Shown in pieces: positions 2,472 to 64,000 of a DNA stretch of 64,000 nt. Position numbers and translations under genes: made by a program. Source of the stretch: Eledone cirrhosa (lineage: Eukaryota); the NCBI GenBank assembly GCA_964016885.1, contig OZ024748.1, positions 17,484,001 through 17,548,000 of the forward strand, read 5' to 3'. The notes beneath the pieces were generated by a model that was not told where the DNA came from, did no database searches, and saw only the letters and a program-made list of their open reading frames with translations. Numbering within the stretch: the first letter of the stretch is position 1; every line of letters begins with the position of its first letter.

Positions 2472-2582
2472 ATTAAAATAAAAGATTAAATTTTAAGCAA
2501 AGAATCGCTGCTTTCACCCTTAACGGGATCTTCTGTTATCGAGCCCTCTTTGGATTTTAGTCTTCGCATTTATTATTTTTAC
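2472..2582 (+). mobile_element. Family D cassette: inverted HHR arm joined to an internally deleted tail
   Basis: 2472-2535 matches the left arm of 48727-48853; 2536-2582 matches the tail at 36635-36683 and the PLE end at 21418-21465. Confidence 0.75.
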
Positions 2583-2630: not shown

Positions 2631-2823
2631 TAATATAGAAATGGCTTCTACAGGACTAGAATTGTTTCATTTGGGAGAAATCATCAGGAAGCCTTTGATG
2701 ATTTCTCTTGAATGAAACAGTTCTAGTCCTGTAGCAGCCATTTCTATATTAGATATTTATACTCTGCTTTGTATTGAGTACCTTACTTACTGTGGTTACC
2801 CTCAATTGAAGCCAGGATAAACT
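2631..2823 (+). mobile_element. Fold-back cassette family C between (TA)n
   Basis: Imperfect palindrome 2631-2751 centred on the stem-I sequence gaagcc; tail contains gtattgagtac. Confidence 0.75.
2643..2693 (-). ncRNA. Type I hammerhead ribozyme (family C)
   Basis: Minus strand: ggcttc-CTGATGA-tttctcccaaat-GAAA-ca-attctagtcc-tg-TA-gaagcc. Confidence 0.75.
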
Positions 2824-5993: not shown

Positions 5994-6378
5994 CATCAGC
6001 ATTTTACGTCCGCTTTTCCCTGCTTGCAAGGATGGGACGGGAACTGATTCTGGCTTGATTTCTACAGCTGGATGCCCTTCCTAACACCAACCTCATTTAC
6101 AGTGAGTGCTGGGTGCTTTTTTTTTTTCTGTGGCGTCTACACATCCACTTTACAGTGTGGACTGGGTGCTTTTTTGCCGTGGCACCTCCACGACCACTTT
6201 GCAGTGGAATGATAGGGACCCCAGTCCCTATCATCTCATTTCTACAGCTGAGTAAACTGGAGAAATGTGAAATAAAGTGTCTTGCTCAAGGAAACAACAC
6301 ATCACCCAGTCTGAGAATTGAACTCACAACCTTTTGATTGCAAGGCCAATGCTCTAACCACTAAGCCATGTGCTCTCC
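5994..6378 (-). mobile_element. tRNA-derived SINE family B
   Basis: Reverse complement of 7654-7998. Confidence 0.85.
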
Positions 6379-7653: not shown

Positions 7654-7998
7654 GGAGGCACATGGCTTAGTGGTTAGAGCATTGGCCTTGCAATCGAATG
7701 GTTGGGAGTTCAATTCTCAGACCGGGCGATGTGTTGTTTCCTTGAGCAAGACACTTTATTTCACATTGCTCCAGTTTACTCAGCTGTAGAAATGAGATGA
7801 TAGGGACTGGGGTCCCTATCATTCCACTGTAAAGTGGACGTGTAGGTGCCACGGCAAAAAAGCACCCAGCACTCACTGTAAATGAAGTTGGTGTTAGGAA
7901 GGGCATCCAGCTGTAGAAATCAAGCCAGCATCAGTTCCCGTCCCACCCATGCAAGCAGAGAAAAAGTGGACGTTAAATGAAATGATGATGATGATGAT
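7654..7998 (+). mobile_element. tRNA-derived SINE family B, full length, with RTE-derived (GAT)n tail
   Basis: tggcttagtgg (A box), gagttcaattc (B box), ccttgagcaagacactt core, tail ggacgttaaatgaaatgatgatg. Confidence 0.9.
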
Positions 7999-9128: not shown

Positions 9129-9344
9129 CTGTTTAACATCTATTTTCCATGCTTCTCAGTCAGGCTATCACATTAAGAGGTCAGACATATCAAGGGACAT
9201 GTCTCCCACTAACCATCCAATAAAATTCTAATATTAAATACTTACACTTAACATTTTAAATACAAAGTGAGAAATACAATATTGGATAGACTTTAAAAAA
9301 CTGGGAGCCAAATTAAATTAGTCATTTAACTTATATATATATAT

Positions 9345-9552
9345 ATAGGAACGAGTAGGACCCCAACGGCTGAGCTCAAGCCATATCGACGGCTAATTCT
9401 GGACTAAATGTTTTAGTCCAGAATTAGCCGTCGAAACGGCTTGAGCTCAGCCGTCGGGGTCCTACTCGTTCCTATTACCCACTTTACTACCCTAAGTATT
9501 GAGTACTTTGGTGTGTTATGGTCCACCTGGTTCCTTACCACATTTCCTTTGT
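9345..9552 (+). mobile_element. Fold-back cassette family B, second copy
   Basis: Palindrome 9345-9475 with a different loop (ggactaaatgttttagtcc); same GAAACGGCT...AGCCGTC and tail. Confidence 0.8.
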
Positions 9553-9567
9553 TATATATATATAGAT

Positions 9568-9620
9568 GAGATTCTACAGGACTAGAACTGTTTCATTCTT
9601 TAGAAATCATCAGGAATCTC
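9568..9620 (-). ncRNA. Stand-alone type I hammerhead ribozyme (family C) between (TA)n
   Basis: Minus strand: gagattc-CTGATGA-tttctaaagaat-GAAA-cag-ttctagtc-ctg-TA-gaatctc. Confidence 0.85.
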
Positions 9621-9665
9621 TCTATATATATACACACGCACATATATATATATATAATCTCTCTC

Positions 9666-9715
<50 letters not shown>

Positions 9716-13313: not shown

Positions 13314-13420
13314 AGTCTGGAACTAGCTGTTCAAATGGCAAGAACTCAGCCATCGGGGTCCAAAATATTGAGTACTCTGGTGAGTAATGTTCTAACCAGT
13401 TTCTTACTGTATCCATTTTG

Positions 13421-21527: not shown

Positions 21528-21578
21528 AGTTTAAGCAAAGAATCGCTGCTTTCATCCTTTACGGAATCTTCTGAAACT
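21528..21578 (-). ncRNA. Hammerhead (family D) in the PLE terminal repeat; core CAGAAGA (U4 to A)
   Basis: Minus strand: agttt-CAGAAGA-ttcc-gtaaa-gga-t-GAAA-gca-gcgattctt-tgc-TT-aaact. Confidence 0.65.
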
Positions 21579-22496
21579 AAAAAAAATCAATCTGTGAATG
21601 CAGAAGTAAATATTTTGAAAAACGTTGCAACCGAAGGAAGACAGGAAGATGATACTTTGGTTCGTGGAGACGTTCCCTGACAAAGAACAAAAAAAAACGA
21701 AGATAATACGTCATTATTTGGAGCGGTGAAAACAATTACACGCAAAGACAAAACCACGTTTATGATATAACTGAAGTCGTAGACTAAAATACTATTTAGG
21801 AAACCGAATGATTCTCGGCTTCAGAGTTAAGAATAATGTAAATAAATTACAGAGGTAATTGAAATTAAATAAATACATGCACTCATTCATATACGTACAT
21901 ACACATGCATACGCGAAAACACTCGCCATGGGTATGCAAATACAAGTACGTACACAAAAAAACACACACGCACATACAGAACCTACGCATCGCCTGTACC
22001 CGCACACATACGAACGTATACACCAAACACACAAAAAAAATATATAAAAATATATATATATATGTGTGTGCGTGTATACATATAATTATATAAACATATA
22101 TAAATATACACACATAAATACGTATATAACGCGCGCACACACATACCTATATGTAAATACACATTTGTTCGCAGACGTACGTCAACCAAAACACAAAGTA
22201 CACATATACACACACACCCTACGAACCTGCATACTCACACAGACGCAGGACTCACGTATACACATAACCATATGCACATGTACCAGTATATATAAAATAT
22301 AATATATACGCCTATAACATATACAAGCAAATATACGTACGAGAAAGTATACGTACCTTCACAAAACATACAGGTGATATATACTTACCTATACAAATAA
22401 GTAATGGTATAAACATAACATACTTAGCTACCACATCAAGACGTAAAATATCCGCGTATAGTTCGTGCTATCCGTTGGGGTATAATGTGGGGCCGT

Positions 22497-23040
22497 AATG
22501 TAGGAAGGTTTTGTGCAATTTATGTTTACAAACCGAAATTGCTTCATATTTTTTGTTTAAGGTGTGGTCTTTGGCGTAGAGTATTTCCAGGGCCTCAGCG
22601 GAGCAGGGGTCACATGGTTTTTATTTCCGTTATACGATCTAGCCTTAGCTAGGATCTCCCAGTGTAACTTATATTTGGTGTGGTTGTCTTTTAGACTCCA
22701 GATATAAACTGAAAGTGACGTCATATTCCTTCTTAAAGGGTTAAGAAAAGAATGGGTATGCATGTATAGACGCTGCTTGAATCTATTGGCGGTTGACCTT
22801 ATGTAGGCCTTACGGGACGTGGGTGTTTCAACCTTACATTTGTAGACAATGTTACTAGAGAGACATTTCCCGGATAGGGGGCAGTCAACCCGATTCCTAC
22901 AATTACAGTTAGTACTAGCTACAGGGTTGCGCGTGTTCTTACGGCTAGGTAATTTAGCTAAATTTGAAGCTGTGATGTTATGTGCAAGGTTAGGAGTAGT
23001 AGAGTAAGAAATTTTAATTGTATTTCTATTAAAAATGTTT
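22497..23040 (-). pseudogene. PLE GIY-YIG endonuclease domain (Naiad/Neptune-like), frameshifted
   Basis: IFNRNTIKISYS..CNCRNRVDCPLSGKCLSSNIVYKC..AYIRSTANRFKQRLYMHTHSF..TSLSVYIWSLK..WEIL; after the frameshift CDPCSAEALEI..LNKKYEAISVCKH. Confidence 0.9.
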
Positions 23041-23428
23041 ACGAACGCAGAAACGCGCACACAGAAGCACACAAAAACGCACAAAAAGTGCACAAATCGC
23101 GCACATAAAACGCAAAAAGTGCACATAAACGCGCACAAAATCGCGCACATAAAACGCACAAAAAGTGCACATGAAAGCACACAAAAACACGCACATAAAA
23201 GCGCACAAATGCCCACATAGAAGCGCACAAAACGAACACAGAAACTCGCACATAAAAGCGCACAAAACGCTCACGTAAAATCGCACAAAACGCGCACAAA
23301 AAATGCACATGAAAGTACACAAAAACGCGCACATACAATTACACAAATGCTCACATAAAACGCATAAAGTGCACATGAAAGTGCACAAAAACGCGCACAA
23401 AACGAACGCAGAAACGCGCACACAGAAA
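23041..23428. repeat. Irregular short-period repeat (AAAACGCAC/GCACATAAAA-like) joining Helitron and PLE
   Basis: Bounded by direct copies of acgaacgcagaaacgcgcacacagaa at 23041 and 23402. Confidence 0.85.
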
Positions 23429-36524: not shown

Positions 36525-36683
36525 TTCTGAAGATCCCATTAAGAGTGAAAGCAGCGATTCTTTGCTTAAACTTTAATCTGTTATTTTAATAAATTTTTGC
36601 TCTAGGGTTCTTATATATTTGATATTTATTTATCCTTATCAAGCCATCTTTGGATTTTAGTCTTCACATTTATTATTATTACT
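36525..36683 (+). mobile_element. Family D cassette starting at the HHR core
   Basis: ttCTGAAGA-tcccattaagagt-GAAAgca..tgcTTaaact plus the full tail matching 21418-21530, ending in (TA)n. Confidence 0.8.
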
Positions 36684-48726: not shown

Positions 48727-48853
48727 TATTAAAATAACAGATTAAAGTTTAAGCAAAGAATTGCCGCTTTCACCCTTAACGGGATCTTCTGAAGATCCCG
48801 TTAAGGGTGAAAGCAGCGATTGTTTGCTTAAACTTTAATCTGTTATTTTAATA
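48727..48853. mobile_element. Family D palindrome with its axis inside the HHR core
   Basis: gggatcttc-T(48790)-gaagatccc; plus strand CTGAAGA-tccc-gttaa-ggg-t-GAAA-gca..tgc-TT-aaact. Confidence 0.8.
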
Positions 48854-54411: not shown

Positions 54412-55950
54412 GGAAAATGTTTAACCCAGACGGCAGAGCTCAAGCCGTTTCGACGGCAATATGTATGTTTGTGTCTAATATATATTGAAGAGATAAATGT
54501 ATATTATATAGTTTGCATTTTGATTATAATACATACAGTATGTCTATATAAATATATATTTGCTCTATGGGTGTATATATATATATACAATCCTTATCAA
54601 GACCTCTTTAGATTTTGGTCTTTGTAATTATTATTACTATGTGTATGTGTGTGTCTTGCTCTCTCTCTCTCTATATATATATTTTTTTTTTTTTTTAAAT
54701 AGAGGTGTGACACACGAGTTGTGATATATTAGTAAAAATGACAAATTTTTCCCAGTGAAAAATAGTATAATTAGGAATAAGTATAAATTAGTAATAAGTA
54801 TTAGTTAGTAATAAGTTTTAGTTTTAAGTTTTTACCGGTTGCGCATTTCTAATGCTTTTCAAAAATAATTTTGAGATAGAGCGCTCGTGATGTTTGCTCT
54901 CATCTGATCAGTTTTGGAAATTCTTCCTGTTTTATGTAAAAAAAGTGGCTCCAGAGGTATTAAGATTTGGTTGGTTGTTGAATGTCACGTGAATAAGTAC
55001 TATAAATTTTGCGCCAATTCGTGTTGCAAAAATTCTGGTATTCAAAACAATTTTGATTGGTCGGTAGAGGTCACGTGAATGTTAAAAATTGATTTTAGCG
55101 CGAACTGGTTTGGCGCCAAATGTAGGTTTGTCGAAGAGTGTCCTTTTTCGCTTGATTGAGTTGAAGTCATGTTGAGAAGTCACTGAAAAACATGTCTATT
55201 AAGACAAATATGTGTGTGTAGTAAATAGGTTCATTGTTGTGATAATGGTCAGTAGGGATGTGTCTGTGAGTTGCAGTCATGTTGAAAGATCAACAGTTCA
55301 GGTGTCTATTAAGACAAATATGTGTGTGTGTGTGTAGCAGAGTGGTTCGTGGTAGAGGGAATGAATTGGTCAATAGGAATGTGTGTGGGGGTATCTTAAC
55401 ATGTTGAAACATATTTTTCAGCTCTTATCTTATATGGAGAAGTGTGTGTGGGTGTCTGTTTGTATGTTAATGTACGCGCATGTGTGTGTGTGTGTGTGTG
55501 TGGATGGACCAGTATTTTTGTGATACTGGTAAAAATGGTGTACATTATTCGATATTTTCAGTAATTTGCAAAAACGATTCTCTCAAAAGAACATCAAAAA
55601 CATCAATAATAAAAGAGGTGAAATGATGTATAGTATTGTCATAACACCAAGGTGTGTGTGAGTGTCCAGATTGTACGTACTGCAAGGGGAATCCATTAGG
55701 CCCTGCCGTATGGGATACTTGTGTACAAATATGTATGTGCCCATCAATGTGCAATATGTGTATGTATCTGTGCGTATGTGTATGTATGTGTGTCGGCACG
55801 CTTATATCTATAAACATCAAAAGGTATGCAAATTTGTGTATATTTGTGTTGCACAATAGGACATGTGTGTTTACGTATGTCATTGTGTTTATATGTGGAT
55901 AGAAATGTATGTAGGATGTATGCTAATGTAGGTATGTATATATACACACA

Positions 55951-62250: not shown

Positions 62251-64000
<1,750 letters not shown>

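What the first reader, a model, noticed from the sequence alone, without database searches (positions are those of the whole stretch)
9568..9620. Bare 53-nt hammerhead with stem I covariation against 2643-2693
The core and stem III region are shared, but stem I is gagattc/gaatctc here versus ggcttc/gaagcc, which is compensatory change. The insert is essentially only the ribozyme between TA repeats. Families C and D both show U opposite U at positions 10.1/11.1 instead of the usual G-C pair.
Basis: partly seen in the sequence, partly recalled or inferred. Interest (0 to 1): 0.7.

Follow-up and report, generated by a model that had tools for sequence, protein, structure and literature searches.

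The report
Hammerhead end of a Penelope retrotransposon
This self-cutting-RNA motif is real, but it is the shortest leftover of a known kind of jumping gene (a Penelope-like element) that left tens of thousands of such ends in TA repeats of this animal genome, and its odd U-U pair is already in print.

Summary
The type I hammerhead is real (minus strand 9620-9568; predicted cut 9575/9574). It is not a free-standing ribozyme insert. Its core occurs 27,850 times in the genome. It sits in the terminal repeat of a Penelope-like element with a 713-aa RT/GIY-YIG ORF, full-length in 12 of 20 loci, carrying Hydra-clade motifs. The window copy is the shortest class of insertion into (TA)n. Stem I covariation is genuine: two compensatory pairs in 33 distinct rows, but probably only two events. 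U opposite U at 10.1/11.1 is published: Perreault 2011, and 14 of 25 Hydra families in Craig 2021 File S2. Inferred extras: 5' ends pile up at the first base of stem I, about 30 nt behind a TATA box, which suggests the transcription start; 40 of 44 inverted pairs join one long and one short end; the active fold is predicted only as a dimer; there is no excess of ends at the cut site. Cleavage is untested. The scan noted this element class before, on other DNA.

The parts
9614..9619 (-). Stem I 5' arm (AGAUUC), element-encoded; its first base is the predicted transcription start of the element
   Evidence: Same six bases in full elements, 30 nt behind the first T of TATAAATA; start site inferred
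9620..9622 (-). Three junction bases (GAG) not found in the full element; the G at 9620 makes the seventh stem I pair
   Evidence: Full elements have CCC here; window sequence
9607..9613 (-). Catalytic core C3-A9 (CUGAUGA)
   Evidence: Sequence
9595..9606 (-). Stem-loop II: U10.1 (9606) opposite U11.1 (9595), three pairs UUC/GAA, loop UAAA
   Evidence: Sequence; loop letters vary across copies; only 7 genome copies have both U changed, 1 of them to G-C
9591..9594 (-). Core G12 A13 A14 A15.1
   Evidence: Sequence
9576..9591 (-). Stem III ACAG/CUGU with 8-nt loop holding a self-complementary CUAG; predicted dimer interface
   Evidence: Cofold of two copies
9574..9575 (-). Predicted cleavage site after GUA (A17 = 9575)
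   Evidence: cleavage not tested
9568..9574 (-). Stem I 3' arm (GAAUCUC)
   Evidence: Sequence; pair probabilities 0.89-1.0
9560..9567 (-). Last element-derived bases, merging into the TA run: the shortest of three recurrent 3' ends
   Evidence: Matches the full element up to +15 after the cut site; 5 of 53 sampled copies end at +15/16
9553..9564 (.). (TA)6 target repeat on the 3' side
   Evidence: Sequence
9623..9632 (.). (TA)5 target repeat on the 5' side
   Evidence: Sequence
2643..2693 (-). Hammerhead of an older subfamily of the same element (GGCUUC/GAAGCC), short 3' end
   Evidence: same arms in TATA-linked copies such as L162, L168, L171
2694..2823 (+). Inverted partner of the 2643 copy, with a broken first core base and the long 3' tail
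   Evidence: Sequence; scored long/short

Best explanation
This is the hammerhead-bearing end (pseudo-LTR) of a Penelope-like retrotransposon with Hydra-clade motifs, here cut down to about 60 bases inside a (TA)n repeat, likely because reverse transcription began just 3' of the ribozyme and ran off the 5' end of the element's RNA. Shown: the same motif lies about 170 nt upstream of the start codon of a 713-aa RT/GIY-YIG ORF and again 4.8-5.4 kb further on in the same orientation; copies have three recurrent 3' ends, each just before a templated TA; 5' ends cluster at the start of stem I. Inferred (about 70%): a CCAAT/CACCC/TATA promoter in the upstream repeat starts the RNA at the first base of stem I. 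Inferred (about 75%): the element's endonuclease nicks (TA)n and its RT primes at two internal sites, one for each DNA strand, which gives head-to-head pairs with one long and one short end. Inferred (about 60%): the ribozyme cuts slowly alone and better as a dimer or with protein help, so most inserted copies come from uncut RNA. This promoterless copy is most likely inert.
For: 27,850 exact core matches, reversed control 0. Full 713-aa ORF in 12 of 20 loci; motifs RWR 38, DKT 116, YRDD 347, CxCX5C 566, IVY..YIG 585, CxxC 666, CxH 694 fit the Hydra description (PMC8557442 section 11). All 6 of 6 extended loci have a same-strand hammerhead behind the ORF, and 4 of 6 an inverted one. 3' ends of 53 young copies: 31 short, 19 long, 3 run into the ORF. 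5' ends: 28 of 53 stop within 8 nt of C3 by script, 22 run on for 45 nt or more, and 3 values are alignment overruns into TA (one search read). TATA-to-stem-I distance is 29-32 nt in 35 of 40 copies of several subfamilies although the spacer differs. Direct TA junctions: 61 at stem I start, 10 at the cut site, 7 at a control site in loop III (10 vs 7 p=0.63). Inverted pairs: 40 of 44 long+short, 4 short+short, 0 long+long (p=6e-9). Monomer hammerhead fold probability 0.0015; active double hammerhead -24.2 against -21.0 kcal/mol for two misfolded monomers.
Against: No cleavage or RNA data. No tree was built, so the clade rests on motifs; Pfam gave only a sub-threshold GIY-YIG match (E 0.067) and no RT match. 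Most short 5' ends stop at -5 (GATTC), one base short of the predicted start at -6. The pattern needs an intact core, so 5' ends inside the core are invisible, and inverted partners are counted twice. Fold-back of the cDNA at stem I, or the CAG splice-acceptor-like site at -5, could also cluster ends here. The three junction patterns differ in length (28, 29, 23 letters). The dimer MFE (-27.0) uses a stem II register that ties up G12-A14; 105 of 840 loop permutations dimerise as well. D. virilis Penelope has a TATA-less promoter (PMC2377424 abstract).
Confidence: 0.9

Rival explanations
1. The bare hammerhead is a minimal non-autonomous retrozyme that copies itself through its own small (circular) RNA, borrowing the PLE enzyme.
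For: 11 identical bare copies with the same junction letters exist; animal retrozyme families as short as 51 bp and solo monomers are reported (bioRxiv 10.64898/2026.07.22.740005).
Against: No head-to-tail array among the first 100 core matches; the two loci with two same-strand copies hold different subfamilies. The sequence is identical to the end of ORF-bearing elements. Several of the identical bare copies share flanks (L196, L202, L203, L208, L213), so they were multiplied as passengers of a larger repeat. The insert has no promoter.
Confidence: 0.05
2. Same element, but the clustering of 5' ends at stem I comes from cDNA fold-back or from a splice acceptor, not from a transcription start.
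For: 57 of 100 sampled copies were flagged as having inverted sequence upstream (loose test); stem I arms give 6 nt of microhomology (L048); a pyrimidine tract plus CAG precedes ATTC; in D. virilis the intron ends at the 5' end of helix I (PMC4209133).
Against: 61 copies join TA directly at this point without inversion; no shared upstream exon is seen in the junctions; the GGCTTC subfamily lacks the AG at this place; TATA spacing is kept.
Confidence: 0.25
3. The motif is a catalytically dead relic kept only as an RT-binding or promoter signal.
For: U-U at 10.1/11.1, a 3-bp stem II and predicted misfolding; no excess of 5' ends at the cut site; in Anolis Poseidon, ribozyme mutants still insert in vitro (PMC11167929).
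Against: All core bases are kept across subfamilies with compensatory stem I changes and across Hydra families of several phyla; U-U is the best tolerated mispair (PMC3088659).
Confidence: 0.15

Closest known systems
Hydra-clade Penelope-like elements (Craig et al. 2021, PMC8557442; section 11, passages, supplement parts 1-2 of 59 and search hits read)
   Same: Single RT + C-terminal GIY-YIG ORF, DKT, RW(K/R), CxCX5C, CxxC and CxH motifs, hammerhead in the terminal repeat, (TA)n targets, inverted 5'-truncated partner, tail at one end only; U opposite U in 14 of 25 listed families (my count by eye; one row repeats another family's sequence).
   Different: A different family from Hydra-1_Obim, whose hammerhead has other stems. 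Unit length 4.8-5.4 kb because of a 2.5-3 kb TA/TG-rich 3' region (published ones generally under 3 kb). Loop III has 8 nt instead of 1-3. Tail about 68 nt instead of 30-40.
Minimal type I hammerheads of metazoan PLEs (Cervera and de la Pena 2014, PMC4209133; parts 1-2 of 4 read)
   Same: Located in pLTRs, mostly found as solo truncated copies, palindromic helix III, proposed dimer activity, many subfamilies with covariation.
   Different: They keep G10.1-C11.1, a long helix II and almost no helix III; this one has U-U, a 3-bp helix II and a 4-bp helix III.
Natural hammerheads with U10.1-U11.1 (Perreault et al. 2011, PMC3088659; section 8 and passages read)
   Same: Stem II opens with a U-U mismatch; very short stem II.
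   Different: The text read does not tie that variant to PLEs or give its rate; figures and supplements were not seen.
Poseidon PLE of Anolis (Frangieh et al. 2024, PMC11167929; parts 1-2 of 4 read)
   Same: Two internal RT start sites that define an optional tail, AT-rich targets, both strands cut and extended, uncut RNA as main template.
   Different: There the ORF starts inside the ribozyme and the RT start is not homologous to the target; here the ATG lies about 170 nt downstream and each 3' end abuts a templated TA.
Non-LTR retrozymes (PMC7229834 part 2 of 6; bioRxiv 10.64898/2026.07.22.740005 parts 1-2 of 5)
   Same: Short non-coding repeats with a type I hammerhead, related to PLE ends.
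   Different: Defined by head-to-tail tandem units and circular RNA; neither is seen here.

Membership tests
Type I hammerhead ribozyme | Core C3 U4 G5 A6 N7 G8 A9, G12 A13 A14, A15.1-U16.1, H17 | tested here: met
Type I hammerhead ribozyme | Three helices with stem I open, supported by covariation | tested here: met
   95.3% of cells paired; 2 stem I pairs change on both sides; slid controls 36-44% paired; stems II and III show no double change
Type I hammerhead ribozyme | Site-specific self-cleavage | not testable with these tools
   No bench data; junction counts show no peak at the cut site
Type I hammerhead ribozyme | Loop I-loop II tertiary contact of fast natural hammerheads | tested here: inconclusive
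   Bases beyond stem I do not pair consistently across subfamilies
Minimal PLE hammerhead (Cervera 2014 consensus) | G10.1-C11.1 pair and long helix II | tested here: not met
   U-U and 3 bp; not filed under this consensus
Hydra-clade PLE | Single ORF with RT and C-terminal GIY-YIG | tested here: met
   713 aa, YRDD at 347, IVY..YIG at 585-604; Pfam GIY-YIG below cut-off
Hydra-clade PLE | DKT in place of DKG; RWK motif | tested here: met
   DKT at 116; RWR at 38, a conservative change
Hydra-clade PLE | CxCX5C linker; CxxC and CxH in the EN C-terminus | tested here: met
   Positions 566, 666, 694
Hydra-clade PLE | CCHH motif absent from the EN | tested here: inconclusive
   Two Cys lie inside the GIY-YIG core, 9 residues apart, not in the close spacing that I recall for CCHH; no alignment made
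Hydra-clade PLE | Hammerhead in the terminal repeat; insertion into (TA)n | tested here: met
Hydra-clade PLE | Placement in the Hydra clade of an RT tree | not tested
   Published sequences were only seen as text
Non-LTR retrozyme | Head-to-tail tandem units, each with a hammerhead | tested here: not met
   None among the first 100 matches
Non-LTR retrozyme | Circular RNA of unit length | not testable with these tools
   No raw RNA reads offered

The most novel reading that the evidence does not exclude
The hammerhead is the capped first 50 bases of the element's mRNA and cuts only when two RNAs are held together in a dimeric RT complex; the same complex primes both target strands from two different RNA sites; and the (GA)k runs found only at 5' junctions are made by the telomerase-related RT stuttering on a cap-plus-AGA end. 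Thousands of young junctions would then record the full, still unsolved PLE insertion cycle.
Probability: 0.15. Interest if true: 0.6.

Novelty: new member of a known kind. Interest (0 to 1): 0.22.

Why it matters
As a ribozyme it is ordinary: both the class and the U-U variant are published. Its value is as material. The family is young, has many full-length ORFs and tens of thousands of junctions, so it offers a good system for two open points on Penelope-like elements: what the hammerhead does, and how inverted ends with a one-sided tail arise. It would also be a ready test of how a U-U-closed, 3-bp stem II hammerhead behaves as monomer and as dimer.

Tried and rejected
Rfam scan of the window: only a tRNA-like match, no hammerhead model at gathering score. 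Folding z-score of the 53-mer is -1.17, 29 of 200 shuffles fold as well, so stability alone is no support. Inverted-repeat search was swamped by TA runs. Idea of a 140-nt circle that includes the TA repeat: dropped when the ORF-bearing element was found. Extended stem I beyond six pairs: seen by eye in the young subfamily, not in older ones. Covariation as an artefact of inversion: rejected, because copies with genuine upstream DNA show it; of the 30 loci, four (L151, L156, L160, L174) were left out of the alignment as inverted, rearranged or truncated, and L056 for an extra U; 13 young copies were picked to cover variants. A Watson-Crick subfamily at 10.1/11.1: none, 7 copies with both bases changed. 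Extra G at 5' junctions as a trace of the cap: junctions too mixed to call. The first classification script had an offset error; ends were recomputed, whose aligner overruns by about 6 nt into TA. Sequencing runs: no RNA holder listed; contigs laid on 9330-9700 did not span the locus and gave no verdict on an empty allele. The full form of the neighbouring 9347-9552 repeat was not resolved (23 mixed matches). Paper searches showed no paper on this exact family; Repbase and Dfam were not available, so it may be catalogued there. An earlier count said 13 intact ORFs; recounting one search gives 12 of 20. Look-up of earlier findings by sequence gave nothing.

Full report
Observation. The minus strand of 9620-9568 parses as a type I hammerhead with a complete core, a 3-bp stem II opened by U opposite U, a 4-bp stem III with an 8-nt loop, and GUA before the 3' arm of stem I. 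The predicted cut lies between 9575 and 9574. A second copy lies at 2693-2643; the shared core occurs twice in the window and never in 100 shuffles. Rfam does not find either at gathering score.

A large repeat family. The window lies in a 3.0-Gb genome of 1796 contigs; an octopus-like animal is my inference from size and repeat content, not a tool result. The core pattern has 15,469 + 12,381 exact matches, with 0 for the reversed control. The loci show a fixed layout: upstream DNA with CCAAT, a CACCC-rich stretch and TATAAATA, then the hammerhead, then either (TA)n or a further tail and then (TA)n.

The parent element. In L044/L061 the tail runs on into an ORF. Of 20 close loci, 12 hold a full 713-aa frame. 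It has RWR, DKT, YRDD, CxCX5C, a C-terminal GIY-YIG-like core, CxxC and CxH, which are the features given for the Hydra clade of Penelope-like elements (PMC8557442 section 11). Pfam gave only a weak GIY-YIG match, and no tree was built. In 6 of 6 extended loci a second hammerhead follows the ORF on the same strand; where both are present they lie 4.8-5.4 kb apart, and 4 of 6 loci also have an inverted copy. This is the pseudo-LTR arrangement described for these elements. Older stem I subfamilies lie beside inverted ORF pieces 80-84% identical to this protein in 2 of 30 loci (L164, L170).

Why the insert is bare. Among the first 100 core matches on the largest contig, 53 belong to the young subfamily. 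Their 3' ends fall in three places: about +10 to +15, +21 and +89 after the cut site, each just before a templated TA; 31 are short, 19 long and 3 run into the ORF (the script's values overrun by about 6 nt). Their 5' ends are bimodal: 28 of 53 stop within 8 nt of C3, 22 continue for 45 nt or more, and 3 are overruns into TA. Inverted partners are counted twice here, and ends inside the core cannot be seen. The window copy combines the shortest 3' end with the clustered 5' end; 11 copies have exactly this form. The first base of stem I lies 29-32 nt behind the TATA box in 35 of 40 copies from several subfamilies. I infer that the RNA starts there and that bare copies are run-off products of its first 60 or so bases. 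Direct TA junctions number 61 at this point, 10 at the cut site and 7 at a control site. So inserted copies come mostly from uncut RNA, as reported in vitro for Anolis Poseidon (PMC11167929). A TATA box with an initiator in a pLTR was proposed before for rotifer Penelope (PMC3846280 passages), while D. virilis Penelope is TATA-less (PMC2377424 abstract). Fold-back at stem I and a splice acceptor remain rivals.

Inverted pairs. Of 44 head-to-head pairs in all loci fetched up to then plus the window, 40 join a long and a short end, 4 two short ends and none two long ends (p = 6e-9 against independent ends). The 2643 locus is such a pair. A tail at one end only is known, and two RT start sites with both strands extended were shown in vitro.

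Covariation. On 40 aligned copies (33 distinct; the window copy plus 39 with genuine upstream DNA), 95.3% of cells pair, against 36-44% for slid partners. Two stem I pairs change on both sides (A-U/C-G and A-U/G-C); stems II and III show no double change. The seventh pair is not kept. The shuffle control is exceeded for paired cells (0 of 500) but not for the number of covarying pairs (473 of 500), and the copies are related, so this is about two events. The wider support comes from the published Hydra table, whose stems differ freely around the same core.

U opposite U. Only 7 copies have both bases changed, one to G-C, so the family has no Watson-Crick branch under that pattern. A second, unrelated family in the window has the same mismatch (5 matches; 696 exact core matches in the genome). 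The feature is known. Perreault et al. 2011 report natural U10.1-U11.1 and note that it supports more activity than other mispairs. In Craig et al. File S2, 14 of 25 Hydra families show it by my count, without comment in the text that I read.

Likely activity. As a monomer the hammerhead fold has probability 0.0015; the best fold pairs the core with loop III. Two copies can form a double hammerhead through the near-palindromic stem III, at -24.2 against -21.0 kcal/mol for two monomers, though a catalytically wrong stem II register scores -27.0 and 105 of 840 loop permutations dimerise as well. Dimer dependence and low activity are reported for PLE hammerheads (PMC4209133). Slow, dimer- or protein-assisted cutting is my best guess; nothing was assayed. 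A 5'-UTR role in translation, as shown for fungal viruses (PMC13725137 passages), is possible for the full element and untested.

Unexplained. GA runs stand at 75 5' junctions, as many as direct TA junctions. In 19 of 20 loci a TA run precedes the GA run, and in only 1 of 20 does a GA run follow the 3' TA run, while 8 of 868 TA runs in the window are followed by one. Microhomology joining, RT stutter and later microsatellite growth all fit. At the window locus a second (TA)n(GA)4TT lies about 35 nt upstream, which leaves microhomology open.

Verdict. Real, correctly read, and explained: a new family of a known kind of element, with a known ribozyme variant. Interest is low for the finding as posed and moderate for the junction statistics. 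Supplements of the bioRxiv preprint were not opened and could list similar monomers; figures of the cited papers were not seen.

Noticed in passing
window 2503-2533 (-), 21541-21571 (-), 36529-36559 (+), 48759-48821 (both strands): Second hammerhead family with CUGAAGA core, U opposite U at 10.1/11.1, longer stem III and an apparent CUU cleavage triplet; 24 of 25 sampled copies have an inverted copy directly upstream, only L237 shows a stem I 5' arm.
   Followed up: partly
window 9347-9552, also about 880-1080, 13330-13410 and 54423-54451: Another TA-inserted fold-back family with GAAAC-stem-GUC and a tail that shares the motif TATTGAGTAC with the family studied; its 5' core half is missing in these copies and was not resolved. 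The shared motif could be an RT-binding signal.
   Followed up: partly
window 22471-23045 (-): Fragment of a related Hydra-like endonuclease region, 48-52% identical to the 713-aa protein.
   Followed up: no
L082-L087, behind the stop codon: The element carries a 2.5-3 kb TA/TG microsatellite-like 3' region that is recognisably shared between copies, so it may itself spread simple repeats and offer targets for its relatives.
   Followed up: no
L196, L202, L203, L208, L213: Bare hammerhead copies with the same inverted microsatellite flanks on different contigs, apparently multiplied as part of a larger repeat.
   Followed up: no
window 6307-6370 (-) and similar stretches near 7720, 11577, 12189, 13738, 25350, 40493, 56628: tRNA-like match (Rfam 30.3 bits) inside a repeated element, probably a tRNA-derived SINE.
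   Followed up: no
window 62848-64000: About 1.1 kb of nearly pure TA repeat.
   Followed up: no
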